This document shows positions 5,727-64,000 of a DNA stretch of 64,000 nt, one piece after another. The notes under the pieces are model-generated. The model saw only the letters and a list, made by a program, of their open reading frames with translations, did no database searches and was not told the DNA's origin. The translations under genes were made by a program, and so were the position numbers. Source of the DNA: Azolla caroliniana (lineage: Eukaryota > Plantae > Polypodiophyta); assembly GCA_043228905.1 (NCBI GenBank), contig JBHGNT010000005.1, positions 5,952,001 through 6,016,000 of the forward strand. Direction: 5' to 3'. The number at the start of each line of letters is the position of its first letter. Within the stretch, counting starts at the first letter, position 1.

Positions 5727-5858
5727 ATTGTTGAGGTTGTATTAATTCAACAATGCTCTTTCGAAAGTTGCTCATGTTTGATGCTCCATATGTAGCTCTT
5801 GGATCCTTTGTTGTAGCCCAATCGTAGTGACTCAACTAAAGCTATTAATTTTGGCAGC

Positions 5859-13766: not shown

Positions 13767-13795
13767 GGAATGGGGTGGGAGGTTGCCAGTTGTGC

Positions 13796-15496
13796 CTAGT
13801 GCTTTGTACAACAGGTCATGAGTGGGGGGCACTCACCATTTAGACATCCAGACATTTCCAGGGATGGAATAGTCGTCCACATCCATGAGTGGAGTTTGTG
13901 GGCTATCTTGTGGGCTTCAATCGCCCCTTCATGCTTCTCATAGAAATAGACAAAGCTTGGAGTTAGTTGGGTGTTTATGATAGTCCACAGGTGGATGTGG
14001 CAAAGATGGGGGTCCTCTTCATCCATGGTGCACCAGAATTCAGTGTTATGCCAATGTTGCTTTAGTTCATTCATGAGCTCTTCATCTCTTATTTGTGCTA
14101 CAAAGCACGCTGCTTGGTTACATAACATATCTTTAATCTTGGATTTCGATCAATCTTCCTGAGTCGAAAGCAAGAGTGGAAAGGAGATTGAGGTCGTCGG
14201 AACTCCGTTATTGTGCACCGTTGATACATGTACCCTTATTTTTTCCACTGCCTTGGGCCCTATACCTAACCATTTCAAGGCGTTTTGTGGGTGTGGTTCA
14301 AGGTCTTGGCTAGAGGACGCACACTCATTTGTGTCCGGGACGACTATGATTTGAGGCGTGACATTCACACTTCTGCCTTGGGTTGCTTCTTCTGCATTGG
14401 GTGTCGTTCCACTCAAGCTCCTTATTAGGGTCTTTACATGACTTATTCGTCTGCGTTTCCCTGTTTTGTAAGCTTTAACGAGAACTTTCTCTTGGGTGCT
14501 TGGTGTCACCTTAGGTCGTTCCTTTGGGCTTACGAAAGAACTAGGGGAATGCTCATCTGTGGGGGGGAGCTCTTGTAGTAGATCAAAGCGATTGGGGCTC
14601 ATAGGCGATGGAGGATTTTGTGCCGGTGATGTTTTCCGAAGGACATGGGTTTTTTCCACCACTCGCCATTCCATCACAGCCTTGTCGGGTCGTGGTGGGG
14701 GAGGCTTTTGATGTCTTATGGTATCCTGACCTTCCAAGGTCTCCTTTGTAGGATCTTTAATACGTCTTGTGGGGCAATTCTTTTTTAAATGACCAAGTTT
14801 TTTGCATGCAAAACATTGCCCCGGTGCGCCAATCACTTCTATGCGTTGTTCAATTCGCATTCCGTTTTTCCCGGGAATGAGGATCTTGGAGGGAAGTTTA
14901 TTGATGTCCTGCACCAAGAGGCGGATAGAGGGAGGGCCTAGGTGCTTCTTTAGTCTGTTTGGTAGCGTTAATTCCTCATCCAACATCATCCCAAAGGAGT
15001 TGCCAATAGTAGGAAGTAGCATGTTGTATTCTAAGGATAGTCCAGGAAACAACATTGTTACCTTTTTCATGGAGTCATCCTATTGTGCGGCTTTCTCTGG
15101 GTTAAAACCATGTGTCCATTTACGCATGAACAACCATGTATTACGGACCTGGCAGGGGGAAAGTGCGATGAGGTTCGTTGCAGACTCCTTGTCTTCTAGT
15201 ATGATTTGATAGAAGTCTTTACCAAGCGGTTGGACTTCTTTTATACCACGGAGTTGTGAATGAAATTGAGCTTGCAACATATCTCGCAACAACCCTCTGT
15301 TTGGTCGTGATCCCATCACTCGGCATATGACCGCTATTCGCTCAAGGCGCTCTATCTCTTTCTCAAGTAGAAGCATCTCTTCGTTGTTGAAAATAATCTC
15401 AACAGGACCCCCGCTATCAGAGATGTTTTTTCCGTTATCGATCAAGGGGCCTGTTGGTGCAATGTGTTCGACAGTGGCGATGTTTGAAGGTGCCAT
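13796..15496 (-). pseudogene. L1 ORF1 (DUF4283-like region + CCHC knuckle), disrupted
   Basis: VICRVMGSRP...FMRKWTHGFNP resembles the plant L1 ORF1 N-terminus. CFACKKLGHLKKNC is the zinc knuckle. Stops at 15080 and 14150. Confidence 0.8.
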
Positions 15497-16029
15497 TAGT
15501 GATAAAATTGGATTGCGTCTCTTTCTCTCTTCTCCTTCTTTTGGGGGGGGGGGGTTCAGTCCTCAAAACCTGCTCCTCCTCGAACAATGGGGGAGGTGTG
15601 AGAGGAAACCCTAAATGATGGCCTCCTCACGAAACTGAGGAGGGTGATGCAGCAGCGGCGGGGAGGAGAGGCGCTCCGGCTCCAGCTCTAGCTCCAATTC
15701 CAGTTCTGCTGTCTACCGGTGCGATTCAACCCTCCTGTGCCGCTGCTCTGCTATGCCGGGCGGGTCTCCTGGTGAGACGCCCACACCGTAGACCTCCGTT
15801 GAGGGTTGGCGCGTCACTTTGCTGCTCCCGCTCTCTAGGGAGACCCTCAAATAACCTTTGACGTCGATTTATGTGCACTTAGAATATTAGCTTTTTGCTA
15901 TCCAAAAAGTTCTCTCCCTCTCTGTCTCCATAAAATTAGCATTTATATTCAAATAAATACATATGATTGTACAAAAAACCGTTAACCTAATATAAGTTTA
16001 TAACCATGAGGGTTATTATGCTAGGTAAA

Positions 16030-29900: not shown

Positions 29901-30677
29901 ATGTATCATGGATTGCAGGTGGCAACGCCTCGCACCAGGATTGCAGACATTCGTCTGGTAAGCCGGCATCCTGAAGTTTATGAGCCGTGTGATGATTCAT
30001 TTGCCCTAGTGGACGCCCTTCTCGCAGACCGACAATACCTTGCATCTCTTCGTCCGAGCTTGTGCTTGGAGGTTGGATGCGGGAGCGGATACGTGATCAC
30101 ATCCCTCGCCCTCATACTTGCTAGCAATTGTGACACTAAAGTTCACTACCTAGCCACTGATATAAATGAAGTGGCGGTGAACACTACTCGAGCTACCCTA
30201 CAAGCCCATAAGGTCGATGCAGATGTGGTGGTAGGAGACCTTGTTTCGGGTTTCCAGAAGAGACAATTGAACGGTAGTGTCGATGTGCTTGTGTTCAATC
30301 CCCCTTATGTGCCTACTCCCGAGGATGAGGTGGGAGTAGATGGTATTGCATCCTCTTGGGCAGGAGGTTATAAAGGCCGTGTGGTGATCGATCGGATGCT
30401 CGCTATTGTAGATTCGCTCCTCTCTAGTAAAGGTGTGTTTTATCTTGTGACAGTCACAGCTAACAATCCAGGAGAGATTTGCCAGATCATGAGAAAGAAA
30501 GGATTTGCTTCTAGAATTGTAGTCCAAAGGTATACTGAGGAAGAGAGCTTACACATTCTAAAGTTTTGGCGAGAAGCATTAGACGAGACTTTGGATTTTA
30601 CCGGGCCTGCCCTTACGTCTCCGCGATCTTCGTCATTCTTGCAACGTTCTCTCTCACGTCTAGTATCGTTTAAATAG
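29901..30677 (+). CDS. N6AMT1: HemK2/N6AMT1 (MTQ2-like) eRF1 glutamine methyltransferase; start codon uncertain
   Basis: VYEPCDDSFALVDAL, SAM-binding motif LEVGCGSG, ATDIN, NPPY, WAGG..GR.VIDR. Intact to TAG at 30677. Confidence 0.93.
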   Translation: MYHGLQVATPRTRIADIRLVSRHPEVYEPCDDSFALVDALLADRQYLASLRPSLCLEVGCGSGYVITSLALILASNCDTKVHYLATDINEVAVNTTRATLQAHKVDADVVVGDLVSGFQKRQLNGSVDVLVFNPPYVPTPEDEVGVDGIASSWAGGYKGRVVIDRMLAIVDSLLSSKGVFYLVTVTANNPGEICQIMRKKGFASRIVVQRYTEEESLHILKFWREALDETLDFTGPALTSPRSSSFLQRSLSRLVSFK

Positions 30678-34149: not shown

Positions 34150-36402
34150 TTACGAGAACCCACCCATTCTGTGACTTAAATGCACTCTTGTTGGTTTACA
34201 CTTACCATACGCATCAAAATAATTGTCATCCAAGCACAACGTATGTTCAAATGCCCACTCACCAAAGTTCAGCTTTCCCCATTTCTGAGAAGCAGTTAGT
34301 AGTGTTTGCCACAAAACAAGATTGGGTGAAATGGGCATTCTTTCTATTGCTTCAGCTAATTTCTCTAATTCACCCAAACGTCCAAGAAGATCAATCATGC
34401 AACCATGGTGTTCAATTATCGGAATAATACCATAACGTTTGCTCATAGCCTCAAAGTATGTCAGGCTTGCACTAGATAGACCTCTACGACTGCATGCATT
34501 GAGAACAATAATGAAGGTAATCATATTTGGCTTTATACCTTGACCAAGCATTTCATCGAATATGTGAAATACCTCTTTGCTTTCTCCTAGCTTAGCATAT
34601 CCTGTCATCATTGCTGTCCATGAAACCACATCTCGGACATGAAGCTTGCTAAACATTTGATGTGCTATTGTAAAAGATGCACACTGTGCATACATGTTCA
34701 GCAAGGCATTTCCCACAATATCTATTCTTAATAAACCACGCCTTTCGATTTCAGCATGTAGATTTTGGCCTTTATCTATAGCTCCAATGTTTGTACAAGC
34801 TTTCAAGGCACAAAGGAATGTAACTACATTTGGCGATACACCATCAAGTTCCATCCTTTCAAAATAAGCCAGTGCATCCTCTCCACAATCATAATTGAGA
34901 TGTACTGTGATTAATGAGTTCCATGACACAACATCGCGATCTTGAAGTTGGTTGAACAATTCTTCTGATTCCATATACTGACCGCATTTGCCATACATTT
35001 CCACCAAGGCAGTGCCGATAACACAATCTCTCGTGAGAAGTTCCTTCCGTTCAACTTCAACACGTATTTCTCTTCCTCTTCCCAAGTCTCCAAGGTTTCC
35101 ACATGCTTTCAAGCTGAAGTTATAACTTACAGAGTCAGGTGGCACACCCTCAACTTGCATTTGTTCAAAACAGTTGAGAGCTTCCTCATCAAGCCCATGA
35201 TTATTATATCCTACAATTAGATGGTTCCACGCAACAACATCTCGAACATGAAGCTTATCAAACACTTCTTGTGCTCTAGTAAGCAAACCAAATTTGACAT
35301 ACATCTCAAATAAGGCCGTGCCAACATGAACATCTCTTTCCAATATACTCTTCCTTTCAATTTCAGCATGAATTTTCTGGCCCTTTTCTCTAGCTCCAAT
35401 GTTTCCACATGCTTTCAAACCGAAAACAATGGTGACAGCATCTGGACTAATACCCTCCAATTGCATCTGGTCTAAACATCTTAATGCTTTCTCTGCATTG
35501 CTCATTTTAGAAGAATATACCGATATAAGTGTTGTCCAAGATATGACATCTCTCACCGGAAGCACTTCAAACACCTGTTCCGCCATGGAAAGCATGCCAC
35601 AGTCACAATACATATTTACCAATGCATTACCAACATTTAGATTTGTGTACATAAACCCATTACTTTCAATGTCAACATGGAAATATTTTCCTTTTTCTAC
35701 ATTGCCCACGATACTACAAGCTTTCAGATTACATACAAAAGTGACTTCATTAGGGAAAACCCCTTCAACCTTCATCTGCTGCAACAATTCAAACGATTTG
35801 AAGGGCATACCATTTCCTACATATGCATCAATCATGGTGGTCCAAGAAACAACATCTTGTTTCAGCATCATCATCGAATCAAAAACTTCTTCACATATCT
35901 CAAGCATACCACATTTAGCATACATAGCGATAACTGCACTGCCAACAAAGACATTTTCTCGTAAATATTTCATTCTGACAATATCCTGATGGAGAATGAA
36001 AGCAGACTTAATGTCATTCAGCTTTCCACATGCTTTTAACAAACTAACCATAGTTCGACCTGACGGATGAACATAACAAACATCACTCTGCATTTTGTCC
36101 CAAATATATAATCTTTTGTACAGAGCTAAGGCTTTCTTTGGATTTCTAAATTTGACATAGTCATGGATAAGGGAGTCAAAAGAAAAATTGTTATTACGGT
36201 CTAGCATGTTAAATAGCTTCTGAGTTTTTTGTGTGTTTTCTACGTTACTGGGAGATTGGAAAAGGTGTTTACCAAGTAATTCATGCGATTGTAGACCAAA
36301 TCTCTTCAAGTAGGCATAGAGACACAGTGGATGGCTTTCTCTTCTGCTTTGTTTAATGGTGCAGATGAATAAGAGGACGTGGATGGAAGATTGAGGAAGC
36401 AT
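34150..36402 (-). CDS. PLS-class pentatricopeptide repeat protein (organellar RNA-binding/editing factor) with E-like C-terminus and no DYW in this exon
   Basis: 750-aa ORF with repeated P-L-S triplets (DVVSW..MI..Y, PD.VTF...LKAC, VGNALV.MY.KCG). Terminal EHHGCMIDLLGRLG...W.TLL.A E-domain signature. Confidence 0.93.
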   Translation of the reverse strand: MLPQSSIHVLLFICTIKQSRRESHPLCLYAYLKRFGLQSHELLGKHLFQSPSNVENTQKTQKLFNMLDRNNNFSFDSLIHDYVKFRNPKKALALYKRLYIWDKMQSDVCYVHPSGRTMVSLLKACGKLNDIKSAFILHQDIVRMKYLRENVFVGSAVIAMYAKCGMLEICEEVFDSMMMLKQDVVSWTTMIDAYVGNGMPFKSFELLQQMKVEGVFPNEVTFVCNLKACSIVGNVEKGKYFHVDIESNGFMYTNLNVGNALVNMYCDCGMLSMAEQVFEVLPVRDVISWTTLISVYSSKMSNAEKALRCLDQMQLEGISPDAVTIVFGLKACGNIGAREKGQKIHAEIERKSILERDVHVGTALFEMYVKFGLLTRAQEVFDKLHVRDVVAWNHLIVGYNNHGLDEEALNCFEQMQVEGVPPDSVSYNFSLKACGNLGDLGRGREIRVEVERKELLTRDCVIGTALVEMYGKCGQYMESEELFNQLQDRDVVSWNSLITVHLNYDCGEDALAYFERMELDGVSPNVVTFLCALKACTNIGAIDKGQNLHAEIERRGLLRIDIVGNALLNMYAQCASFTIAHQMFSKLHVRDVVSWTAMMTGYAKLGESKEVFHIFDEMLGQGIKPNMITFIIVLNACSRRGLSSASLTYFEAMSKRYGIIPIIEHHGCMIDLLGRLGELEKLAEAIERMPISPNLVLWQTLLTASQKWGKLNFGEWAFEHTLCLDDNYFDAYGKCKPTRVHLSHRMGGFS

Positions 36403-36959
36403 CTTTCAGCTGCTCTTCTGAATCAAAATTCAATCATCATCATATTCTCCTTCGTCTTCTTCTTCCTCTTCCTCTTCCTCTTCTTCCTCTTCTTCTTGTC
36501 GAACCTTGCATGAACCATACCAAATGATAGGTACACAGGAAATAGCAGACGGAGGTCGGCCATGGAAGCTTGGATCGCTGAGAGAGATCACCATCCAGTT
36601 GAAAAAGGGTCCGCAGGGGGATTCGGATCGATTGCAACAATAAAATCATTCAAGTTAATCATTTCATTAAAATCATTCAACTGTCCGTGACACTTTCTTT
36701 ACTCTGGCCATTCATGTATGGGTCGCCAAAAGGCCACACATTTCATTATTATTCATATAGCACACATATTTATTACCAAACTTAATCATTCACTAAATCA
36801 ACGTATTACTAGTTGGTTTACTAAATTACTCGTGTGAATGGGACACAACATTTTAGAAGTTTCGATCATTCCATGTCCATCCTATTTGCTCGAAGTACCA
36901 ATACATGTGATGATGAACTATTCATCATATCATGTATGCACAACGACAAACCTCTATCC

Positions 36960-38295: not shown

Positions 38296-44150
<5,855 letters not shown>

Positions 44151-44156
44151 GTCCCA

Positions 44157-44312
44157 GGAAGGAATGGAATTGAATGGAATTGAATGGAATGGGATGATAC
44201 TGAATGGAATGGAATGGAATGGAATGAGATGGTACTGAATGGAATCGAATCGAATCGAATGGTACTGAATGGAATGGAATTGAATAATGGAATAATTTGG
44301 ATGGAATGGAAT
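44157..44312. repeat. (GGAAT)n/(GAATC)n pentanucleotide satellite directly 5' of the ADCS start codon
   Basis: About 30 degenerate GGAAT-type units, directly visible. Confidence 0.9.
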
Positions 44313-46599
44313 GCAAAGGACGCCAAGTAAAGAAATCTTGCGGTTTTAAGATCCACTCTTTGTGTGAATGCCTCCTGTTTCCATCAGTCTTAGTTTGAGG
44401 GTGTTAGGTCTCTCTCTCTCTCTGTCTGCCTTTCTTCATAAATAGTATAAATAGTAATAATGTATTAACCCTAGCAAACTCACAATAACAATGGTGTTAT
44501 GTATGTACATATATGATAAATCTTTGTCCTCTCATATGTTGGGATGGTTGGGACATCAACATTTGTCTTTAACTTAATTGCCTATAGTCCTTTGTTGTAC
44601 CGATGAGCTAGGAATTTGTTGACACAATTCGCATTGTGGCTAGGCCACCATCATATTCATCATGTGATATTGTAGTATGATTTGCTACATTGTGACACGT
44701 TGTATTATGCTCTCAAATTCTTATGTGTCTATGGTCATATTATGTTTTTTTTAGTTATATTATGTATCTTCGATTCATATCCATGGATGGAAGTTGGAAC
44801 CATTTTTGTATGTGATTGTGACCGGTTTCGTTGGGCTTATGACATGTTTTGAGTTCCTTTATGATGTACCACTAATTTTGAGGGCAAATCAAAAAAATCT
44901 CGAGACGAGGGATCAATTGGTGTATCCACGTACCACGACTCTAAATTTTAGCACAAATTATAAGAGAAATGATAAATTACGAGAAAGAAATTCACAAATG
45001 GGGTTACATGGCACTAAGACGTTGTAGATTCGATCAAGATTCTCACGATGAGGATATGCAATGTGGTTGACATGTCATCTGCAACCAATGCTTTACGTTA
45101 GAGATTGGCATGTGAGTCAAGCATATATGGAGATGGTGACGTTGTCATAGATGCCGATGAGCATCCCATGAGTTTCAACAATTGGTACCATGATTGACTA
45201 ATGGATATAAACTATCATTGTTGCTAAACAAACTCACACCACCTACTTTGCTCATCCTACCTATTGCTAGCACCATTATACCTTTCATCACTTCGTAATG
45301 ATCCCACTTCCACTTGTGTTAGGACAAAGTGAGAGTTTGGAGGTAGGAGATGTGAAAATGAGAATGTTTTGAGGAACTTCAATAAGTTATTAAACTACTA
45401 ATCATAGGCCTTGTATTCAAGGCTTGACTTTTACTAGATGCGACAATTGAACATTGGGGTCTCTCTTTATGCCCATCCTATAGATTATAATTCATCTTCC
45501 ATGGCATTAAAAGACAACCATTTATTGCACCATTGTCAACAAAAATATACCCTAATAGAAAAATACGTCATAACATACATTTCAATGATGGGGAATAATG
45601 TGATGACTATGGTTGTTTGAGCATGAAAGCTTAGGCGGGTCAATATGTTGGTCCCATGTGTGAAAGCTACTCCATGGTGAAGATGACTAATTTGGAATGT
45701 TAGGGAGAGTGTTGGTATCATGTTTTGTGTGGTTTGTATCACAAAATCTTCAAACCTCTCCCCTTCATGTTTCTTCTCAATTTCTACAATTGTGCAGAGA
45801 GCATGAAGGATAAAATGCATAAAAAAAAGTAACATGATCCAGCTCTAAACTCATCATTTTAGCATGCTTCCACCATGACAACTTTCATCTAAAGAAGAGA
45901 AACTAGTATATAACTAGTGTTTATGGCTAGAAATGTGATCATCACATTTGCTACGTTATCATGGTTGCTGCATGTTTACTAGTATCATGCAAAATACGTT
46001 TGGGGCTTAGATTTATAGGAATGATGTGATCCCTACGCACAACAAGTATTATTCCGCTATGTGGATGTGAAGAAGCTTCACCAAGATATCAAACACCAAA
46101 AGTCAAGATTACACATTTTACAAGGTATATTGCATATGCACATACAATATGTAATAGTGATCACAAGTGCACATATAATTTGAGTAGTGAAACATCATAT
46201 TCATATCAAGGTTAGGGCTATGGTTGTAGCATGAGGATGTGATCTATTTGTTGTCTTTACCGACATACAAATAGATATCACTAGCAAACAAGTCCCGCCA
46301 AAAAACTCACGTTGCACCAACATACATCTTATTTCAAGTGGATAATGTTTTATGGACTAAAGCTATTATATCATGACATGGGAAAGGTTAAGGGATATGT
46401 GTGTAACCACGTTAATGACTCAAATGTATGGTTAACAAATGGGTTGGCAAGTTCTAATGCATCTTGTTGTGGTAGTTGAATGGAACTAAATACACATCTC
46501 TCTTGAGTGATGTTGCACATAAGGAAAATACAGTTAAGCTCCATGTAAGATAAGGACCCCATCATGAGAATGTCCTTGCATGAATATACATATGCTTAA

Positions 46600-51959: not shown

Positions 51960-54900
51960 GTGTTAGAAAGGAGAGGTGGAGTGTGTATTTCGGTGAGGAA
52001 ATCAGCGGATATCATCATCTTGGATCATGGCATATTGATCGAAGGTAGGGCTATGTTTTGCTACTTGGAATGGAGGAATGTAAAATTTGGGGTGCTGAAT
52101 GTCTACGCACCTAACATTAGCAATGAGAGGACCTCATTTTGGAGACTGTTGGCAAACAAAATTCCCTCCGTCGACAATTGGATAGTGGCAGGGGATTTTA
52201 ACATGACAGAGAGAGTGGAAGATTGTCTTGGGGCTCATTCGAACTTGCTACATGGGGAGGAGTTTAGAGCGTGGGGTTTCTTAACTTCTATGTTGGGAAT
52301 CCGAGACTCGTGGTATTCTACTATGGCAGTTGAGGTGAATTCCTTAAGGTTCTCACGATTTGGCTAGAAGGAGAGTGAAGGATGTCACTCTAGATTGGAC
52401 CGCATCTATGTGAGCCCCGGGATAGAGGAATGGAGTGGCTTCTCATCCATTCTTGCTGGTTTTACTTATTCGGATCACCTTCCAGTATCCTTGACTCTTG
52501 AACCTATTTATAAGAAGAAGAGTGAGAGCAATGTGAGGATTCCTCCGAAGATTTTCGGTATCCAAAAGGTTAAGGATGCAATGAATACCATTTGGACGGC
52601 ATCCCCATCAGCCCACGACCCGATACAGGTACTAGAGGAAAATATTATTAATTCTTCTTTGTTTCTTCAGAAAGTGGCTAGGGAGGAGCTGTTAAGGTGT
52701 CAATACCGTCTGCAATGCCTAAGGAAGGCAGTCATCTCAGCTCAAAAGCTCACGCAAGTGGACCCATGTTGTGCTTGGGCGAAAGACAGGCTGCAGGAGG
52801 CCACTAGGTTGTTGTAGGAGGTTAGACAGCAACGTGAGCAATTCCTCTTCAGAAAGTCAGCAGCATGGTGGGCTGTCAAGGGAGATAAAGTTAACAGGGA
52901 ATTTTTTCTTGCCAAGACTCTGAAACAGAGAGGAACACATATTCATAGTCTCAAACGGGAGGATGATTCAATGACATTTGATCAAGAGGAAATCTTGCAA
53001 ATGGCGACTAATTACTACAGAGACCTTTTAGCTCCTACGTTGACAAACGACCCTCCGAGTAACCTGATGCATGGTGTAATTACATGCTTGAAAACCAGGA
53101 TTGGAGAAGCAGCTAAAGCGCAGTTGTCAAAAGCCATAGAGGAGGAAGAGATTGTAGCGGGGCTAGATAAGATACAGAGTATGGCTTGTCCTGGTGCTGA
53201 CAGTCTTCCCAAAGCCTTCTTCAAGGAGTTTTGGGAGCAAATTTTTCCAAGCTTGAAAGCTGGACTGCAAGAGATGTGGAGAACGGGACGGATGCCGAGT
53301 AGCTTCAATGAAGGCTTGATCTACTTGATTCCGAAATCGGAGACTACGCTGCACGAGATTAAGCAATGGAGGCCGATTACAATTTTAAACCTAATTTATA
53401 AAAATTTTGCTAACATATTAGTGCAGAGAATCAAGCCCTTCCTAGGCGATATCATCCAATCCAATCAAACTGGTTTCATGGAGCATCGTTCTATTATGGA
53501 CAACGTGATTTTGTTTTGGGAGGCTGTTGCAACGGCGAAGGTGACCAATCAAAACTTAGCCTGTCTGATGCTCGACTTCGAGAAAGCCTATGATCGAGTG
53601 CAATGGTCTTTCTTGGAAGAAGTGATGAAGGTCATTGAGCTACCATTGGAATGGAGGTGTGCTGCCCAAGCCTTATATAGGAATGGCTCGAGTAAGGTGC
53701 TGATTGCAGGGAGGAAAGGAGCTCAAATCATTCTTACTCGATCCATCAGGCAGGGTTGTCCTCTTGCCCCCTTTCTTTTCCTTTTTATTACTGAAGCAAT
53801 GTCTGCCCTTTTTAATAGCCAAGGGGCAAATCTTCATGGTCTTTCGATCCCTAATGCAAGGAAGTCCCTGCTGGATTCGGAGTTCGCGGACGATACGATG
53901 TTATACCTCCAAGGAAATGAAGCGAATCTTGAGAGGGCACAGAGTGCTATTGAGCTCTTTTGCAAGGCATTGGGAGCGTCCATTAATTGGAAGAAGTCCA
54001 AGGGTTTTTGGACCAGCTTGGAGCCCGAGCCTGTTTGGAATCCAAATGCTGAATTCAAATGGATTGCAAATGGGGAAGCCACTAGGTATCTGGGAACGTG
54101 GATTGGGGTAGATATCGACAAGGGAATTCAATTGCAACATATTCAAAGCAAAATCTGTGACAAAATTCGCAACTGGTCAGGGATGAACTTATCATTGGCT
54201 GGCAGGATCATAGTAGCTAACCATGTGCTTTTGTCTACATTATGGCATGCAGTTTCAGTGTGGATGTTTGACAAGCAAGCTATTCGTACTGTTAAAGCGT
54301 GTATTAGGGGATTTCTTTGGGCGGGGATGAGGAAAGACAATGCGGCAGCCAAAGTATCATGGTCTACATTGATTCTTCCCAAGAGTAAGGGGGGTTTAGG
54401 ATTGGTTGACCCTGGATTGCAGAGTCAGGCATTGTTATGTAATATATTGGTAAGAAGCTTGCTACCCGGTGATGAGTTATGGAAAACATTGATACATAAT
54501 AGGAGCATTCTATGGAGTCCAAGATTGGGTGGGCAATGGAAGTCACACAAAGCGTGGCCTTTTTGCATGGACTTAAAATTGAGGAAATCTAACCGATTGG
54601 CTGATCATACTTGTATGTCAGTGATGCAGGCGTGGAGTATGCTTCGTGGGCATCTAAGTCGGAATCGTCCAAGTACTAGTGCTGAATGGATGTGCCAACC
54701 CCTATCGTGGAACGAGACCGTGCAATCGCCAGAAGGAATGATGCTTGGACAAAGCAAGCGCATGTCGTGGGCTATATTGCATTGTCTAGGGATACACTCG
54801 GTGGCTGATTGGCTGCGGTTGTCCGGCAATAATCGTGATCAATTATATGAAGACATGGGAAAGGTCAGAAATGGCAGAAAGATGCTTGACGTAGTCAATA

Positions 54901-56021
54901 CAGCTGTCTCCTCGCTTCCTATTGGTAATGAGGAAGAGGGTGAATGGTCTGGACAATGTGATGGTACCAGAAATATTATCAATGTCAGGGGTCTAGGAAA
55001 GAGTGGGAAGACCGTCCTGATGGGATTATTAGATGAAAGTGCAGGCTGGTACCCTATTAGAATTGTGGCAAGACACGGAAAGAAATGGAAGGTGAATCCA
55101 CCAGTCGAAGAGGTCGAGGAGGATTGGATCTTGTACGTGGTTGAAGGCAAGCCTCTCGAGCGCGTAGAATGGGATCCCGCTGAATATAGGTGGAAGGGAG
55201 AACAAGCTAAATCACTAGGTTTCTTCAAATACTCGACGCGCTTGGGGAGAAAGTTAGGTTCGTATCGTGAGAAATGTGCCAACAAGTGGACCCATGCAGC
55301 TATTGATTCAATCTTCGTGGATAGAACCAAGAGCAGGATATGGAACTCATCCCTTCCCGAGCGGATCAAAGTGTTTTTCTGGTTAATCACCCATCGGGTT
55401 GTTCCAACAGGAGAGTGGCTTGGGAATAGAGGCAGCATGAGTGGTTGCAAGGCGTGTAGTGCTAGCTTGGAGGACATCGCTCATTGTTTGTGGTGCTGCC
55501 CACGAGCGCAAGAAATCTGGCTGAGGAGCTTAAGAATCTTGGCTCGTTTTGGGGTTGAGGTTCATGTATCGAGCGCAGCAATCACTTGGCTGGCCACTGA
55601 ATCGGCCTCGTGGTTTCAAGGGTGGGATGGAAACAGTCCTTCTTTAATGGTAAAGCAAGGATCTGTGCAACCATCAATGCAAGGAGGTTTATTCTTCTTA
55701 CAGGAACGCTACGTGGACATATGGGTATTACTGGTCGGCCTTACGGTCTGGCAAGTGTGGGTATCTCGGTGCAAGGAGACCCTCGCAGGTAAACGAACCC
55801 CACTGGTTGAGAATTTAATGATGATCTGGTTTAATCTTATTTCTACGTTGCGAGGTGAGTTTGAAAGTCTTCAAGGGCCATCTGATGCAAGTGAAAAAGC
55901 TAGAGCTCGATTCCTTCGGAAATGGAGCGGTTCGTCGATGCTGCAGATAATGGATGGTAAAGTGAAGTGGAATTATCAACCACCGCGGTGGCTGTTCCCT
56001 CCAAGTGTTCCTAACATCTAG
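51960..56021 (+). pseudogene. L1 ORF2 (endonuclease-RT-zf-RVT) with premature stops at 52367 and 52817
   Basis: WRPITILN, LDFEKAYDRV, RQGCPLAP, FADD, RYLG, GGLGL, CKAC...HCLWCC, VWQVWVSRC. Confidence 0.9.
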
Positions 56022-56164: not shown

Positions 56165-56763
56165 TGTTGGGATTGCGGTCCCTCCGGATGGGATGGTCGG
56201 ATGTCCGGAGATGAATGACGACAAGCCCGGTTGCGGTTTCGGAACCGGATGATGAAGACCCCGGCTTCGGAGCCGGATGACGAATGTACCCAGAGAGAGA
56301 TCCGGATGCGGGGACATATCTGTGAATATGTTCGCCAAGGGCCCTTGAGGCTATAGTTGTAAATAGCCCTAAAGTCATATGTGTATAAATATGACTTAGG
56401 GCAAACAGTTGTGTTGTTGCTACTCATTTTTCTGTTTTTCCACTCAAGAGGAGTGAAGAGAGAGCAGCCGTGAGAGATAGAGCGTGAGAGAGGGAGAGGT
56501 CGACGCCTCTGTGTAATACCGCCGCCTGTGGCGAGGATAGCGAGCTCAAGGTCGTCGCCTTGCAGCTCGCCATTGTATATTTCTCTGTGCATAGTTTTGG
56601 TTTGGAGTCTTGCACTCCCGTGGTTTTTCCCGTATAGGGTTTTCCACGTTAATCCCTGTGTTATCGTGTCTTTCTCTGTGTTTCCTATTTTCTGCTGCAT
56701 TGATTCGTGATTTCTCGGTTGTGGCCGAGTGGTGAAAGCGAATCGGAGCGTTGATTCTCAACA
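56165..56763 (+). repeat. 5' LTR
   Basis: TGTTGGG...CTCAACA; about 4 substitutions versus the 3' LTR by eye. Confidence 0.95.
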
Positions 56764-56766
56764 AAG

Positions 56767-56778
56767 TGGTATCAGAGC
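56767..56778 (+). promoter_or_regulatory. PBS for tRNA-iMet
   Basis: TGGTATCAGAGC, 3 nt after the LTR end. Confidence 0.92.
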
Positions 56779-56794
56779 GACGGCAGTGCAGAAA

Positions 56795-59700
56795 ATGGAA
56801 GGCGGCAGCAGCGGGCAGCCGGGGATGATGGTGCTGAATGCGCAGAATTACGCCGACTGGAAGATCAAGATGGAGGATCTTCTGATTGTTCGGGACCTGT
56901 ACGAACCGATTGACAGGTCGGAAATACCGAAGGGGGTACTTGAGTCGGAATGGAGGCTTCTGAACCGGAAAGCCGTTGCAACCATTCGGCAATACGTCGA
57001 CGTGAGCGTTCTACAACATGTGGCGAACGACATCAATGCATATGAGATGTGGCGGAAGCTGTCGGGCCTCTACGAGAGGAAGAATGCGTTGAACCGGACC
57101 TCCCTGATGAGGAAGATAGTGAACCTCAAGTACCGGGACGGCGAGAGTATGGTGGAACAAGTAAGCACGTTCATGGGATTCGTGAACCAGCTTGCGGCGA
57201 TCAAGTTCCCGCTGGAGGATGCAATGCAAGCCATCATTCTGATGTGTACATTGCCGGAAAGCTGGGAGAACTTGGTGGTGACTCTCAGCACCTCCTGCAC
57301 GGAAGATAACTTGTCCCTACAAACGGTAAAGACAAGTATTTTGAACGAAGAAGCGCGTCGGAGAGATAAAGAACCGGCCTCCGACTCGAAGGCGCTGCTT
57401 ACCGAATCGGAACGGGGAAGACAATGGAACCGGAGTCCGCAAAGACGGGAGAAGTCGGGGACCCGGTCGCAGTCAAGAGGAAGACCCACATGCTTCCACT
57501 GTGGGAAGCCGGGGCACTTCCGGAAGAATTGTCGGCATTACCGAAAGGACAACGGAGCCGACGACACCGATTCGAAGAAGTCACCGGAGAGAAACGGTGC
57601 ATACCGGGGAGCCACGGGCCGGAGAGGTCCGGATCGGCGAGGGCAGGACCGGAAAGGAACGACGGCACTCGCGGCAAGTGAGGAAGAAATCATGCTCATC
57701 ACCGAAGAAGGTGAACTAAACATTGCCGGCGATGAGACGACCTGGGTGGTCGATTCCGGAGCATCGTTCCACCTGACCCCGTAGAGAAGATACTTCTCAT
57801 CCTACACAGTCGGTGAGCATGGCTGTGTTCGGATGGGAAATGAAGGTACGTGCCGGATTGCCGGCATAGGAGACGTGTGGTTGACAACCTCGACCGGATG
57901 CAAAATGCTGCTGAAGGATGTCCGACACGTTCCGGAGGTTCGATTGAACCTGATTTCGGCCGGGAGGCTAGACGATGAAGGCTACACAGGTAGCATCCGG
58001 AACGGCGTAATGAAGTTCAGCAAGGGGAGCCTGATAGTGGCTCGGGCCCGGAAAGTCAACACACTGTACCTTATGAATGCCCGGTTGTGTCCGGAAGAGT
58101 TGAACGTGGCAGCCGACAATGCCGGTGAGCTGTGGCACAAGAGACTGTGCCACATGAGTGAAAAGGGGATGAAGAGGCTTGCAGAAGACAACCTTATTCC
58201 AGTGAAGCGTGTGCACCTGGAGAAGTGCACCGATTGCCTAGCCGGTAAGCAAAACCGAACCTCCTTCCACTCAAGGCCACCGACGAGACGTGGCGCACCA
58301 TTGGAGTTGGTGCACACCGATGTGTGTCAGGTAGAAACGAAGTCACATGGCGGAGCCCAGTACTTCGTAACATTCATTGATGATCACAGCCGAAAGCTGT
58401 GGACGGCATCGTTGAAGACAAAGGACCAAGTATTGTCCGTCTTCAAAGAACTCCACGCGAGAGTGGAAAGGGAATCCGGCAAGAAGCTGAAAGCGATACG
58501 AGCGGATAACGGAGGGGAATACCGGGGGCAGTTCGCGGAGTACTGTCGCTCGAAGGGAATCCGGCTCGAGTTTACTGTGCCGAAGACGCCGGAACTGAAC
58601 GGGCTGGCCGAGAGGATGAACCGGACCATAATGGAGAGGGTCCGGAGTATGCTGGCGCATGCGAAATTACCCAAGGGGTTTTGGGCTGAGGCAATGTCGA
58701 CGGCGACATACGTGATAAACAGATCACCCTCAGTACCTTTGGACGGAGACACGCCGCAGAGAGTGTGGACCGGTAGGGAAGTATCCTATCGGCATCTGAA
58801 GGTGTTCGGTGTCTCGCATACGTGCATGTGGCAAAGGACCGGAGAGGAAAGCTAGATCCAAAGACCCGGCCATGCATATTCCTCGGTTACGACGACGACG
58901 AGTTCGGCTACCGAGTATGGGACCCGGTCGACAAGAAGATATTCAGGAGTCGAGATATCATCTTCATGGAGGACAAGACACTCGCCGACTGGGAGTCGGA
59001 GAAGAAGATGAAGAGCTCCAAGTCGACCGGTGAGAATCAACTCTACGAGGAGCAGTCCCGACCGGCAAGGGACCGGTTAACACTCGAAGATCCGGCCGAA
59101 GACGGTGAAGAAATAGAACCGGCCGAAGAAGATGAAAATGATACCGGAACCGGCCCCGATCCCGAAATGGATTCGGATGAAGAAGAATCGGAAGAACCGG
59201 TTACCGAAGCTCCGGAACGGAGATATCCTCTAAGAGAGAGAAGGGCTCCCCGGAGATTTCCGGAACCAGTGCACGTGCTGCTAACCGACGAGGGGGAGCC
59301 GGAGAGCTTTGAAGAAGCGAAGCATGACACCCATAGCCGCAGATGGTTAAGTGCTATGCAGGAGGAGATGGATTCCCTGCATGAGAACCACACATATGAA
59401 CTTGTGGAATTGCCGAAAGGAAAACGGGCACTCCGTAACAAGTGGGTGTTCAAGCTGAAACCGGGAGATGCCGGAAACCCCCCGAGATACAAAGCCAGGA
59501 TCGTGGTGAAGGGGTTTCAGCAGAAGAAGGGCGTCGACTTCGACGAGATATTTGCCCCGGTAGTGAAGATGACCTCCATCCGGACGGTGCTGAGCATAGC
59601 GGCAAGCATGGACCTCGAGGTAGAACAGATGGACGTGAAGACGACATTCCTTCACGGTGACCTCGAAGAAGAGATCTACATGTAGCAACCGGAAAGATTC

Positions 59701-60867
59701 GAGAAGAAAGGGAAGGAGCACCTGGTATGCCGGTTGAAGAAGAGCCTCTACGGTCTGAAGCAGGCTCCCCGGCAATGGTACCGGAAGTTCGACTCCTTCA
59801 TGACAGACGAAGGGTACCACAAAACGCAGTCCGATCACTGCGTGTTTGTGAAGAAGTTCGAAGGAGGAGACTTTCTAATACTCCTCATGTACGTGGACGA
59901 CATGTTGATCGTCGGACGAGACCAGGTCAAGATACGGATGCTGAAGAAGGCTCTTCACCGAACCTTCTCAATGAAGGACCTGGGTCCGGCGAGGCAAATA
60001 CTAGGGATGCACATCATCCGGGACCGGAAGAAGAAGCAGTTGTGGTTGTCACAGGAGAAGTACGTGACAAAGGTGCTTCACCGGTTCAACATGTCGGAAG
60101 CAAGACCGGTCGGGTCAACACTCCCGGCAAACTGCAAGCTGTCCAGCAAGCAAAGCCCCAAGACAAAGGCTGAGAAGGAGGACATGATGAAAGTACCATA
60201 TGCCTCTGCCGTCGGGAGCTTGATGTACGCAATGGTGTGTACCCGACCGGACATAGGATATGCAGTCGGAGTGGTGAGCCGGTACATGAGCAATCCCGGC
60301 AAAGAGCATTGGAACGCGGCCAAGTGGATACTCCGATACCTGAAGGGCACGGCAAACGTGTGCCTCCGATTCGGCTCCGGTAAGCCCGAACTCGACGGCT
60401 TCACCGATTCGGATATGTCGGCTGATGCAGATACCAGCCGGTCCACATCAGGGTATGTGATGACGTATGCAGGGGGAGCTGTTTCATGGCAGTCGAGGCT
60501 GCAGAAGACGGTTGCGTTGTCAACCACGGAGGCGGAGTACATGGCGGCTGTTGAAGCCGGCAAGGAAATAATATGGATGAAGGACTTCATTAGAGAGCTC
60601 GGTATCCAGCAGGAGGAGTACCGACTCTACTGCGACAGTCAGAGTGCCATCCACCTTGCGAAGAATGCGGCCTATCACTCCCGGACAAAGCACATCCAGC
60701 GTAGATACCACTGGATCCGGGAAAGGATAGAAGACAAGGAGTTCGTGCTGACGAAGATCCACACGGACGAGAACGGGTCGGATATGCTGACCAAGGTACT
60801 TACACCCGACAAGCTGGAAGCATGCCGGAAGAGGATCGGATTGGAGAGACATCCCATGCCGAAGTGA
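56795..60867 (+). pseudogene. copia gag-pol polyprotein with stops at 57782 and 59683 and a frameshift near 58810
   Basis: CFHCGKPGHFRKNC, WVVDSGASFH, LWHKRLCH...C..C, LVHTD...DNGGEY...NGLAER, YVDDML, TRPDI, SWQS..Q, CDSQSA. Confidence 0.93.
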
Positions 60868-60875
60868 AGGGGGAG
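60861..60875 (+). promoter_or_regulatory. Polypurine tract
   Basis: GAAGTGAAGGGGGAG immediately before the 3' LTR. Confidence 0.85.
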
Positions 60876-60877
60876 TT

Positions 60878-61476
60878 TGTTGGGATTGCGGTCCCTCCGG
60901 ATGGGATGGTCGGATGTCCGGAGATGAATGACGACAAGCCCGGTTGCGGTTTCAGAACCGGATGATGAAGACCCCGGCTTCGGAGCCGGATGACGAATGT
61001 ACCCGGAGAGAGATCCGGATGCGGGGACATATCTGTGAATATGTTCGCCAAGGGCCCTTGAGGCTATAGTTGTAAATAGCCCTAAAGTCATATGTGTATA
61101 AATATGACTTAGGGCAAACAATTGTGTTGTTGCTACTCATTTTTCTGTTTTTCCACTCAAGAGGAGTGAAGAGAGAGCAGCCGTGAGAGATAGAGCGTGA
61201 GAGAGGGAGAGGTCGACGCCTCTGTGTAATACCGCCGCCTGTGGCGAGGATAGCGAGCTCAAGGTCGTCGCCTTGCAGCTCGCCATTGTATATTTCTCTG
61301 TGCATAGTTTTGGTTTGGAGTCTTGCACTCCCGTGGTTTTTCCCGTATAGGGTTTTCCACGTCAATCCCTGTGTTATCGTGTCTTTCTCTGTGTTTCCTA
61401 TTTTCTGCTGCATTGATTCGTGATTTCTCGGTTGTGGCCGAGTGGTGAAAGCGAATCGGAGCGTTGATTCTCAACA
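60878..61476 (+). repeat. 3' LTR
   Basis: 599-bp near-identical copy of 56165-56763. Confidence 0.95.
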
Positions 61477-61786
61477 GTTTCATCTACACATTGTTTTCCT
61501 TTGACATGCAAGATGTCTTGTAAGATATGAGTTGTAAATGATTCCTTTGTACATTCTTAACTAATGGAAGTAGATGTTTTTGGAAAAAAAAATATAGATC
61601 ACCTCTTTTACCATCAATTGCCTTTAGCAAGTATTGAACACTTCACCCTTTTGTTCTAAAATTAGCTCTTACCATTGTTGTTGACTTCTTCTTTTTTACA
61701 TTTCCTTTTGATAATGACCAAAATCCCAACCTATTATAAAACTTGACTTTGTTGGCTCTTTTCTGCTGTCACATGTACCATATCAT

Positions 61787-61934
61787 GAGGTCAAAAACCA
61801 TAATGACTAAATGCATGGACTACTCACCTTTTGATGCCAATGATGTTAGTTTCACATTCCTTGTAAAGGTAAACATTGTCAACACTCTAACAATATTTGA
61901 TACATGAGTGGGACTATTATCAAATACACCACTT
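61787..61934 (+). repeat. Left copy of the ~148-bp direct repeat flanking the Penelope-like insert
   Basis: GAGGTCAAAAACCATAATGAC...GGACTATTATCAA.TACACC is repeated at 63226-63375. Confidence 0.92.
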
Positions 61935-62543
61935 ACTCCCGTCTTAAAAAGCAAAATTCATAATCTTTCAAATTACGCCCTTAGTAAATTAGAAATCAAA
62001 CTTTTAAACCTAGGACTTCTGTTTATACCCCCCTGCCCCCCACCTACTAACCAATCCATTCTTCAAGAATACCAAAACCTCAGTAGATCCTTGAGACTTA
62101 AACATTTCTTTAAAGACTTAAACTCTCCCCCCTCTAATCCCTTCAAACTACCCAACCCGAATTGGAACCCTCCTACTAAGTATCCACCATTAGAGTCTAT
62201 ACTCCATAAACACAATATCTCTCTCTCCACAAACCTCCATAATAATATACAGCCTAATACCAAAATACCACTACACCTCCAAATAGCACTAACCAGCCGT
62301 AGAAAAAACAAACAAATAATCATCCTACTAGCGGACAAAAACATCGGAGTTTGTGTCCTCAATAAAAAAACATACCTAGATGAAGCCCTAGAACATTTTT
62401 CCGACATCACTACATATGTATTTTATATCTTCACTCATTTCTTTTCTCTCTCTCTCTCTCTCTCTCCCTTTTTTCTCCCTTCTCCCTTCCCCCTCCCCTA
62501 TACCTCTCACTACCTTTTTGTACACATTTCACTAAAATCCATA

Positions 62544-62579
<36 letters not shown>

Positions 62580-62966
62580 CTCTTTTCCCTCAAACCTTCT
62601 CTCCACCACTCTTACTAACTTCCTTTTTCTTTCCCTTCTTATTCCCTTCCTTTATTTTCCCCTTCTCACCATCTTATGTTTACTTACTTATAATTACATA
62701 CCCTATCACTCATTCATTTCCCCTTATCACCCTATCCCACTCCCACTCACTCATCTGTCTTATCACCCTATCAATCTTCCTATCACCAACTCATTTTCCC
62801 CTTTACCACCACCCCCCCTATCATCAAGATCTTCCACCTTAAATCCTTACAGCCTTCTATCTATTTACACTCTTATTACACCCCACTCACTATGATTATA
62901 CTTTCCCTCTTTCTCCTCCCTTCCCCATTCTCAACATCCTATATAAACCACCTTTTTTATTTACAT

Positions 62967-63021
62967 GACCTTTTGCACTGATGAGCTCTAAGCGAGCGAA
63001 ACTAGTTTGTTGCATAAGGTC
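62967..63021 (+). ncRNA. Type I (minimal, PLE-style) hammerhead ribozyme motif
   Basis: GACCTTTTGCA-CTGATGA-GCTC(TAAGC)GAGC-GAAA-CTAG-TT-tgt-TGCATAAGGTC. Conserved CUGAUGA and GAAA cores, 4-bp stem II, 11-position stem I with one U-U mismatch, and a short palindromic stem III. Confidence 0.8.
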
Positions 63022-63050
63022 TTTCCTTTCATTTTAATGAAAATTTTTGA

Positions 63051-63052
<2 letters not shown>

Positions 63053-63125
<73 letters not shown>
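63053..63125. repeat. (CT)n microsatellite
   Basis: About 35 units, directly visible. Confidence 0.95.
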
Positions 63126-63129
<4 letters not shown>

Positions 63130-63225
63130 CTTTGTGCTTAGAATCTCTTCTTTTCCTATTACATTATCTACCATATCACAAAGTCACCCGCACTCTTTGC
63201 TACAACCGAACGGTTAATAACAAAA

Positions 63226-63375
63226 GAGGTCAAAAACCATAATGACTAAATGCATGGACTACTACACCTTTTGATGCCAATGATGTTAGTTTCACACTCC
63301 TTGTAAAGGTAAACGTTGTCAACACTCTAACAATATTTGATACATGAGTGGGACTATTATCAACTACACCTACTT
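63226..63375 (+). repeat. Right copy of the ~148-bp direct repeat
   Basis: Differs from 61787-61934 at about 5 positions (3 substitutions, 2 single-base indels by eye). Confidence 0.92.
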
Positions 63376-64000
63376 GCAAAAGTGGGTTAGTACTAATAAT
63401 ATGCCTCAATCAAAGGTGAATCTTACATTTGTCATTACTAGATCGGCCAACCTAGTGGGCCATGATTGCATGTTACGATGACCTTTCCTTCACGTAAATT
63501 GACTTGCCATTGACTTCAAGAACAACATCCTCTATATAAGAATGGAGAGTAGCATTACCTAATGCAAGTTTACAATAAAAAAGTGCATGAACATGAAGGT
63601 AGCCAACTCATGGACGACAATTTGATGACCATAGATTTTGAGGATAGCTTACTCCAATGCCACCTAGATAATGATTGGAAGATTGATAGAGACGAGAATA
63701 TAGGGCTCGAGCCACACAACTACTCATCCTTTGAGGTAAACCATGACTTGTAATGAAGTGGATGCTAATGTTAGCGATGGTTCATTGTGATTAACACACA
63801 ATGTGGTCATGTTGGTAGAGTCATCCTAGACAGTGACCCATGATACTATAAATATCATGACATGTAACACTGCAAATAACCAACACCTCTTATCTCTCAT
63901 ATGAAATCTATGGTAGAGATACAATGGCCTTAATTTAGTACTAAAGCCATTGTCACAACACTTTCATACAAACATTGGTTATGACTTCATTTGTTGACCC

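What the first reader, a model, noticed from the sequence alone, without database searches (positions are those of the whole stretch)
61935..63225. Hammerhead-ribozyme-bearing Penelope-like retroelement in a probable fern nuclear genome
Seen: a 1.3-kb insert with ~160 open codons resembling the PLE pre-RT region (NLS..LS..E..LL.LGL.F.P; LRLK.FF; W.PP; ADKNIG.CVL....Y). It stops before the RT core and is followed by a C/T-rich spacer, TATATAAA (~62940), a hammerhead motif ~20 nt later, (CT)n and an A-rich end. Known: PLEs carry minimal type I hammerheads in their pseudo-LTRs, and in land plants are reported patchily (conifer Dryads, spikemoss). Inference: a non-autonomous, internally deleted member of a ribozyme-processed PLE family that may be undescribed in this lineage. 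It could produce self-cleaved or circular RNAs like retrozymes. This is the best candidate for a new system in the window.
Basis: partly seen in the sequence, partly recalled or inferred. Interest (0 to 1): 0.85.

Follow-up and report, generated by a model that had tools for sequence, protein, structure and literature searches.

The report
Fern telomere-type retroelement at internal site
This is a broken 1.3-kb copy of a Penelope-type jumping gene of a likely fern host, from a family that has no DNA-cutting enzyme and whose relatives join telomere repeats; it carries a predicted self-cutting RNA and sits inside a chromosome between two copies of a 144-base stretch, likely because it was copied into a DNA break, and the kind is already known from a spikemoss and conifers.

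Summary
61931-63225 is a 5'-truncated, internally deleted (about 1.46 kb) copy of a Penelope-like element (PLE), with a TATA box and a type I hammerhead of the dimer-dependent kind. Full-length relatives have ORF1, a likely -1 frameshift, an RT that ends without GIY-YIG, the same hammerhead, and head-to-tail arrays. One sister subfamily joins (CCCTAAA)n. The RT groups (100/99) with endonuclease-less RTs of Selaginella, Ginkgo and Cryptomeria, so this is a fern member of the known plant EN-minus (Coprina-like) PLEs, not a new system. I found no sign that the deleted form is a multi-copy retrozyme-like family. The point of interest: six copies, this one included, end in non-telomeric DNA 10-23 nt before the next ORF1 start, about 170-220 nt past the ribozyme cut site and just after a conserved motif and hairpin. 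That fits internal RT initiation on uncut or re-ligated RNA, and likely insertion at DNA breaks. No report from ferns turned up in my searches, but three key papers were not held. The scan had already reached this reading twice on other pieces of this genome.

The parts
61787..61930 (.). Left copy of the 144-bp target duplication
   Evidence: boundaries from loose ends
61931..61940 (+). 5' junction: truncation inside the RT ORF (about codon 29 of P0001) with 3-nt microhomology ACC, followed by an 18-nt skip between two ACTCCC repeats of the element
   Evidence: comparison with L001, L018, L038; this junction itself was not seen in the 4 runs
61931..62417 (+). Remnant of the RT ORF (pre-RT region up to just past the ADKN motif); 97.5% identical in DNA to L001 over 483 nt
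62417..62419 (+). Internal deletion junction: 1458 nt missing relative to L038 (RT core, thumb, stop codon and about 190 nt of 3' UTR), 1 extra base, imperfect microhomology
   Evidence: other copies continue into RT here (loose ends)
62419..62940 (+). C/T-rich 3' UTR of the element, 81-84% identical to L001, L018, L035, L038
62941..62948 (+). TATA box; a TATA-like element lies 36-39 nt before the hammerhead core in 32 of 32 occurrences (promoter function inferred)
62967..63021 (+). Type I hammerhead motif with palindromic helix III (AAACUAGUUU), predicted dimer-dependent; predicted cut after 63007; 63010 is T here but C in most copies
63055..63125 (+). (CT)35 tract, part of the leader of the next unit in tandem arrays
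63190..63216 (+). Conserved GCACTCCTTG-type motif followed by a small covarying hairpin; candidate RT-initiation signal (inferred)
63217..63225 (+). Templated A-rich 3' end, about 17 nt before where the next unit's ORF1 ATG would be and 217-218 nt past the predicted cut
   Evidence: 3' junction contig in runs X1 and X2
63226..63370 (.). Right copy of the target duplication (145 bp)

Best explanation
The stretch is a 5'-truncated, internally deleted single copy of a two-ORF, endonuclease-less Penelope-like retroelement, likely of a fern and likely of the Coprina-type plant clade, and it was likely written into a pre-existing DNA break by the family's reverse transcriptase. Shown: the full unit is ORF1 + RT without GIY-YIG + C/T-rich UTR + TATA + hammerhead + leader, arranged head to tail, and the window copy runs about 217 nt past the ribozyme cut site into that leader. 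Inferred steps: (1) a tandem array is transcribed from the TATA at the end of the upstream unit, so the RNA starts near the hammerhead and reads through the next one; (2) RT is made by a -1 frameshift; (3) RT starts internally, just after the conserved motif and hairpin and 10-23 nt before the next ATG, on RNA that is uncut (or cut as a dimer and re-ligated) at the hammerhead; (4) the primer is a free 3' end: a telomere overhang for the subfamily that ends in CTAAACCCTAAACCC, and a host break for subfamilies that lack that end; (5) here RT jumped 1.46 kb or the DNA was deleted later, copying stopped in the RT ORF, and the cDNA rejoined the target 144 bp upstream by microhomology, which duplicated that stretch. 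This copy cannot encode RT, and its lone hammerhead is predicted to be inactive without a partner.
For: Homology and continuation into RT. 28 of 43 family loci L001-L043 hold an open DKN..YIDD..CWTK frame. A GIY-YIG profile that finds 22 of 121 proteins finds nothing in six frames of 52 loci plus the window (best E 0.95). IQ-TREE on 35 picked rows: 19-row clade with Selaginella, Ginkgo and Cryptomeria at 100/99; FastTree on 117 of 121 rows: 30-row clade at 100 with no EN-positive row. Telomere joins: L006 3' end into (CCCTAAA)n, and L008 5'-truncated ORF1 capped by about 13 repeats. Hammerhead: 29 of 29 family hits of a loose core pattern have a palindromic helix III (22 CUAG, 7 CAUG); distal helix I occurs as two reciprocal types (12 and 7 of 19 distinct; 6.6 own versus 4.1 cross-type Watson-Crick pairs). 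Six non-telomeric 3' ends lie 10-23 nt before the ATG. Frangieh et al. 2024 (PMC11167929, parts 1-2 of 4 read) show internal initiation at an AC-rich stem-loop with uncut RNA as the main substrate for an animal PLE. Contigs without insert and with a single copy of the duplication: X6 (3082 nt) and a diverged homologue in X2. A host gene's best named hits are ferns (69-72%).
Against: No genome was held, so chromosomal position is unknown; the window only lacks telomere repeats. The 5' junction and the deletion junction were not seen in any of 4 runs, and the X6 empty site could be a graph-simplification product. L034, the one other locus with both flanks well covered, shows no target duplication, so the 144-bp repeat is not a family signature. 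L011, L035 and L036 end earlier, near the (CT)n tract or the ribozyme, so the 3' end is not fixed; the seven end comparisons were picked by eye from 32 motif occurrences. The nine core hammerhead pairs show no compensatory change. The loci are short-read contigs from related samples and may be collapsed or chimeric. No named Coprina sequence (Sm1/Sm2) could be put in the tree.
Confidence: 0.8

Rival explanations
1. The deleted form is itself a multi-copy non-autonomous family that is cut by its hammerhead and circularised like a retrozyme.
For: It keeps the TATA box, an intact hammerhead core and the candidate initiation signal. Summed contig depth is higher over the hammerhead region (about 3500-5000) than over the ORF (about 800-1650) in X1. 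Retrozymes are proposed to derive from PLEs (bioRxiv 10.64898/2026.07.22.740005, part 1 of 5 read).
Against: The junction is in 0 of 52 loci (these loci were chosen by RT motifs that the deleted form also has) and is spanned by no contig in 4 runs (weak, because laying was cut 13 nt past the junction). There is only one hammerhead, and it is of the dimer-dependent type. An excess of 3' ends is expected from 5' truncation alone.
Confidence: 0.08
2. The copy was inserted by ordinary target-primed reverse transcription at staggered nicks 144 bp apart, made by a nuclease borrowed in trans (a LINE, another PLE or a host nickase).
For: A clean long duplication flanks the insert and the 3' junction has at most 1 nt of homology. 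LINE remnants lie in the window. A very long TSD is reported for rotifer R9 elements (title only, in the reference list).
Against: L034 has no duplication. The 5' junction shows microhomology and an 18-nt skip, which is more typical of break repair (inference).
Confidence: 0.15
3. The duplication or the junctions are an assembly artefact (two alleles or homeologues merged around a collapsed repeat), or the fragment came in by DNA-level gene conversion from an existing array.
For: The 5' junction was not seen in 4 runs. The two duplicates differ at 4 of 144 positions, and runs carry mixtures of left-type and right-type letters.
Against: The 3' junction is present as its own contig in X1 (depth 43.5 against flanks of 56-62) and in X2. 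The 3' end falls where other retrotransposed copies end. Mixed letters are expected if both duplicates exist and bubbles were collapsed.
Confidence: 0.1
4. The family arrived by horizontal transfer from animals, like conifer Dryads.
For: The best outside relatives include EN-positive proteins from presumably animal contigs (26-35% identity); Atlas feature neighbours of the Selaginella homologue are mostly rotifer and chordate clusters.
Against: The closest named relatives are from a lycophyte and from gymnosperms (37-42%), and Selaginella branches first within the clade, in keeping with host history (the node above it has only 89/92 support, the root is a midpoint root, and most rows are unnamed).
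Confidence: 0.04

Closest known systems
Telomere-associated EN-minus PLEs of Selaginella moellendorffii (Coprina Sm1/Sm2) and EN-minus PLEs of Pinus and Picea
   Same: No endonuclease, type I hammerhead in the pseudo-LTR (PMC4209133, parts 1-2 of 4 read), DKN motif, telomere association in a sister subfamily, and the same RT clade as an unnamed Selaginella protein (37%) and gymnosperm proteins.
   Different: Fern host, which the review table does not list (PMC9033089, passages). Two ORFs with a frameshift signal, whereas Coprina is said to have typically one ORF (PMC13159263, passages). Several subfamilies lack the telomere-complementary 3' end and have non-telomeric junctions. Whether P0025 is Sm1 or Sm2 could not be checked.
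Athena/Terminon elements of bdelloid rotifers and the two-ORF Coprina-1_Alen
   Same: ORF1 plus RT, head-to-tail chains, 5' truncation capped by telomere repeats, hammerhead followed by reverse-complement telomere repeats (passages of PMC6431247, PMC8557442, PMC13159263).
   Different: Athena is rotifer-specific. In the fern units the telomere-like stretch lies hundreds of bases after the hammerhead, just before the next ATG, and only in one subfamily.
Poseidon PAc of Anolis (internal RT initiation)
   Same: 3' ends downstream of the hammerhead cut, at an A/C-rich stretch beside a small stem-loop.
   Different: PAc has a GIY-YIG domain, and its initiation site lies inside the ORF rather than in the leader.
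Non-LTR retrozymes
   Same: Type I hammerhead with palindromic helix III that needs a partner.
   Different: Retrozymes are tandem non-coding units, each with a ribozyme; this is one coding remnant with one ribozyme.

Membership tests
Penelope-like elements | PLE-type RT with N-terminal DK(G/N) motif, core and thumb | tested here: met
   ADKN in the window; full RT in relatives; precomputed PF00078, PF28514 (DUF8422), PF26215
Penelope-like elements | Partial-tandem/pseudo-LTR arrangement with hammerhead | tested here: met
   L001, L018, L019 tandems; hammerhead between units
EN-minus (Coprina-type) PLEs | No GIY-YIG endonuclease in or next to the RT ORF | tested here: met
   0 hits in 52 loci plus window; 22 of 121 proteins positive, 16 of which built the profile
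EN-minus (Coprina-type) PLEs | Attachment to telomeric repeats (family level) | tested here: met
   L006 and L008, sister subfamily at 70% amino-acid identity to P0001; degenerate tract between units in L001
EN-minus (Coprina-type) PLEs | Telomeric location or telomere-complementary 3' end of this copy | tested here: not met
   No CCCTAAACCCTAAA within 1 mismatch in the window; the 3' end is non-telomeric. Chromosomal position of the window is unknown.
Coprina clade | RT groups with named Coprina references (Cc1, Pc1, Sm1, Sm2) | not testable with these tools
   No Repbase sequences on hand; only grouping with an unnamed S. moellendorffii RT was shown
Coprina clade | Typically a single ORF | tested here: not met
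   ORF1 of about 750-900 aa plus conserved AAAAAAC and hairpin before RT; a two-ORF Coprina is published, so the feature is not strict
Dryad / Penelope-Poseidon / Neptune (EN-plus) | C-terminal GIY-YIG domain | tested here: not met
   RT ORFs stop just after the CWTK linker
Naiad/Chlamys/PLE-X | N-terminal EN or CxC domain before RT; 28S rDNA target in spikemoss PLE-X | tested here: not met
   No EN hit; no CxC before the DKN motif in P0001 by inspection; no rRNA family match in 58000-64000
Type I hammerhead ribozyme | Core CUGANGA/GAAA/NUH with helices I-III | tested here: met
   below the Rfam gathering score
Type I hammerhead ribozyme | Self-cleavage | not testable with these tools
   No assay possible; dimer fold only predicted
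Non-LTR retrozyme | Tandem non-coding units, each with a hammerhead | tested here: not met
   One hammerhead in the window; coding remnant present
Non-LTR retrozyme | Circular RNA | not testable with these tools
   No raw RNA reads were available

The most novel reading that the evidence does not exclude
Within one fern, a telomerase-like, endonuclease-less retroelement lineage has split into a telomere-seeking subfamily that keeps a telomere-complementary 3' end and several subfamilies that lost it and spread through chromosome interiors by priming on DNA breaks, all using one conserved motif-plus-hairpin initiation signal about 200 nt downstream of an uncut or re-ligated dimeric hammerhead; the 144-bp duplication here would be a footprint of such break repair.
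Probability: 0.4. Interest if true: 0.62.

Novelty: new member of a known kind. Interest (0 to 1): 0.4.

Why it matters
The family fills the gap between lycophyte and gymnosperm EN-minus PLEs, which points to an old, likely vertically inherited vascular-plant lineage of telomerase-related RTs. Intact, near-identical relatives exist (28 of 43 loci with an open RT frame), so two open questions become testable in a plant: how elements without an endonuclease reach internal sites, and whether hammerhead cleavage matters for the template. The window copy itself is a dead fragment.

Tried and rejected
Pfam on the window fragment gave only a spurious DASH_Dad3 hit. Pfam on three ORF1 proteins gave no credible family. 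The PDB profile search gave 0 matches. The bare hammerhead core pattern is not above chance. My first motif-versus-chance script had a pattern bug and missed the window's own motif, so that number was discarded and redone. The first tree did not finish. For the 117-row tree I dropped P0003, P0031, P0038 and P0121 for short coverage; the 35-row tree used rows picked by hand. Expression: no RNA holder was listed, and X14 is probably DNA, so there is no evidence either way. Contig depth is not a copy number; it suggests only an order of tens of copies. No cover at 62390-62480 is a hole and proves nothing. Self-BLAST of 28 loci found no long flank duplications like this one, but most of those loci lack one flank. 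A look-up of earlier scan findings by sequence (P0001) found nothing. Gladyshev & Arkhipova 2007, Lin et al. 2016 and Arkhipova et al. 2017 were not held, so I saw them only as cited by others; they or their supplements, and Repbase/Dfam, may already list fern copies. The Craig et al. 2021 supplement held had 0 hits for 'fern' and 'Sm1'. Searches that returned no fern PLE description in their listings: (listings and abstract starts only, except for the papers named as read).

Full report
Observation. The sequence at 61.9-63.2 kb is as described. An open frame covers 61908-62618. Its first part matches 9 proteins among 475 longer candidates, best P0001 (621 aa, 85% identity, E 1e-80); 8 of the 9 carry RT domains. 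Homology ends at 62417. Contigs of three DNA runs continue there into the RT core, so the window copy is broken at this point. After the break comes the family's 3' UTR; relative to L038, 1458 nt are missing.

Hammerhead. The bare core is common by chance and Rfam is weak (E 0.12). The core with three helices occurs once in the window and in 0 of 300 control sequences. A loose core search of 52 loci gave 30 hits. The 29 in family loci all have a self-complementary helix III (22 CUAG, 7 CAUG) and a GUU triplet. The nine core pairs are 98.8% paired but show no compensatory change, so they add no covariation evidence. The distal part of helix I exists as two reciprocal sequence types, which is probably one or a few events. 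Monomers fold into an inactive-looking shape, and two copies can pair through the palindrome. This is the architecture that Cervera and De la Pena 2014 (PMC4209133, parts 1-2 of 4 read) describe as needing a dimer. They also report canonical type I hammerheads in telomeric EN-minus PLEs of Selaginella. A TATA-like box lies 36-39 nt before the core in 32 of 32 occurrences, which would put the start of transcription near helix I (inference from usual TATA spacing, recalled). The window has U at 63010 where most copies have C, which gives a G-U pair in helix I.

The intact element. A metagenome scan gave 52 loci, 43 of them close and long family members. The unit is ORF1 (about 750-900 aa, Pro/Asn/His-rich, no Pfam family), a conserved AAAAAAC with an ORF1 stop just behind it and a hairpin (read as a -1 frameshift, inferred), an RT of about 620 aa from the first Met, a C/T-rich UTR, TATA, hammerhead, a leader of about 200-450 nt, then the next ORF1. 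28 of 43 loci have an open RT frame. No GIY-YIG is detectable in any frame of the loci or the window, while the same profile finds 22 of 121 proteins. The contigs are short-read assemblies from related samples, so they are not independent and tandems could be partly chimeric.

Relatives and host. A profile search found 186 proteins, of which 120 were listed. The closest named ones are from Cryptomeria, Selaginella moellendorffii and Ginkgo at 37-42%. FastTree (117 of 121 rows) and IQ-TREE (35 picked rows) put the family in a clade with these at 100 and 100/99. The clade has no EN-positive member and Selaginella branches first. A host gene at 29907-30674 has ferns as its best named hits (Adiantum and Ceratopteris, 69-72%). 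A 2022 review lists EN-minus PLEs for Selaginella, Pinus and Picea only (PMC9033089, passages). Craig et al. 2021 (PMC8557442, abstract, sections 3 and 12, passages, supplement search) define EN-minus PLEs as generally telomeric.

Telomeric and internal copies. In subfamily L003-L008, the leader of L004-L006 ends in CTAAACCCTAAACCC just before the ATG. L006 runs from there into pure (CCCTAAA)n, and L008 has a 5'-truncated ORF1 capped by telomere repeats. That is the terminal-attachment signature described for Athena/Terminons (PMC6431247, passages). The window's subfamily and others lack this end. I compared seven ends picked by eye from 32 motif occurrences. Six (window, L014, L029, L034, L037, L038) pass into non-telomeric DNA 10-23 nt before the ATG and 172-217 nt past the predicted cut; the seventh, L006, is telomeric. 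Three others (L011, L035, L036) end earlier. Just upstream of these ends is a conserved GCACTCCTTG motif and a 3-bp hairpin with compensatory changes in all three pairs (14 sequences). L001, the closest relative, has a degenerate telomere-like tract between units, so this subfamily may also use chromosome ends. The window has genes and no telomere repeats, but its chromosomal position is unknown.

Mechanism. Because the insert spans the ribozyme, the template was uncut or re-ligated there. Frangieh et al. 2024 (PMC11167929, parts 1-2 of 4) found internal initiation at an AC-rich stem-loop and uncut RNA as the main substrate for an animal PLE; the fern ends fit this. With no endonuclease, the primer must be a pre-existing 3' end. 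The near-blunt 3' junction, the microhomology and 18-nt skip at the 5' junction, and a long duplication that L034 does not share fit insertion during break repair. The 3' junction is confirmed in runs X1 and X2 and not seen in X6. X6 has a 3082-nt contig with one copy of the repeat and no insert, and X2 has a diverged homologue of the empty site. The 5' and deletion junctions were not seen in any of the four runs, which leaves some room for an assembly artefact.

Retrozyme idea. The deletion junction is absent from all 52 loci. The copy has one dimer-type ribozyme. RNA could not be examined. The idea is not excluded but has no support.

Earlier scan notes. I looked them up after forming this reading. 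Two unreviewed notes on other pieces of this genome report the same family, the initiation signal and break patching. They are not independent evidence.

Verdict. Real, a new (fern) member of a known kind; interest 0.4. The bolder reading, a telomere-type lineage that has shifted to break-primed internal spread, has probability about 0.4 and would merit about 0.62.

Noticed in passing
window 56165-61476: Full-length Copia-type LTR retrotransposon, LTRs 99% identical, 5-bp target duplication GTTTC, with in-frame stops; it ends 310 bp left of the duplication.
   Followed up: partly
L030:~995-1010: A dispersed copy starts inside the hammerhead core about 10 nt before the predicted cut, which suggests a template that was uncut or re-ligated at its 5' hammerhead.
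   Followed up: partly
L028:5506 and ~5765-5800: A second, degenerate hammerhead copy about 260 nt after the first: a short tandem of the ribozyme region that resembles a retrozyme-like unit.
   Followed up: no
L001:4104-4254: Degenerate telomere-like tract (AAACCCT alternating with AATCCCG) between two units, flanked by a short repeat of the leader.
   Followed up: partly
L001:1331-1420 and 21 other distinct sites: Conserved slippery heptamer plus hairpin between ORF1 and RT, a candidate -1 frameshift signal.
   Followed up: partly
window 29907-30677: Intronless-looking HemK/N6AMT1 methyltransferase ORF, used to place the host among ferns.
   Followed up: partly
window 34150-36405 (-) and 38296-44345 (-): A PPR-like ORF and exons resembling aminodeoxychorismate synthase (labels recalled from motifs, from no database call), with a (GAATG)n-like tract at 44139-44323.
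   Followed up: no
window 2003-5741, 11101-15562, 52818-56021: Gypsy-like and LINE-like retroelement remnants (labels by inspection of translations).
   Followed up: no
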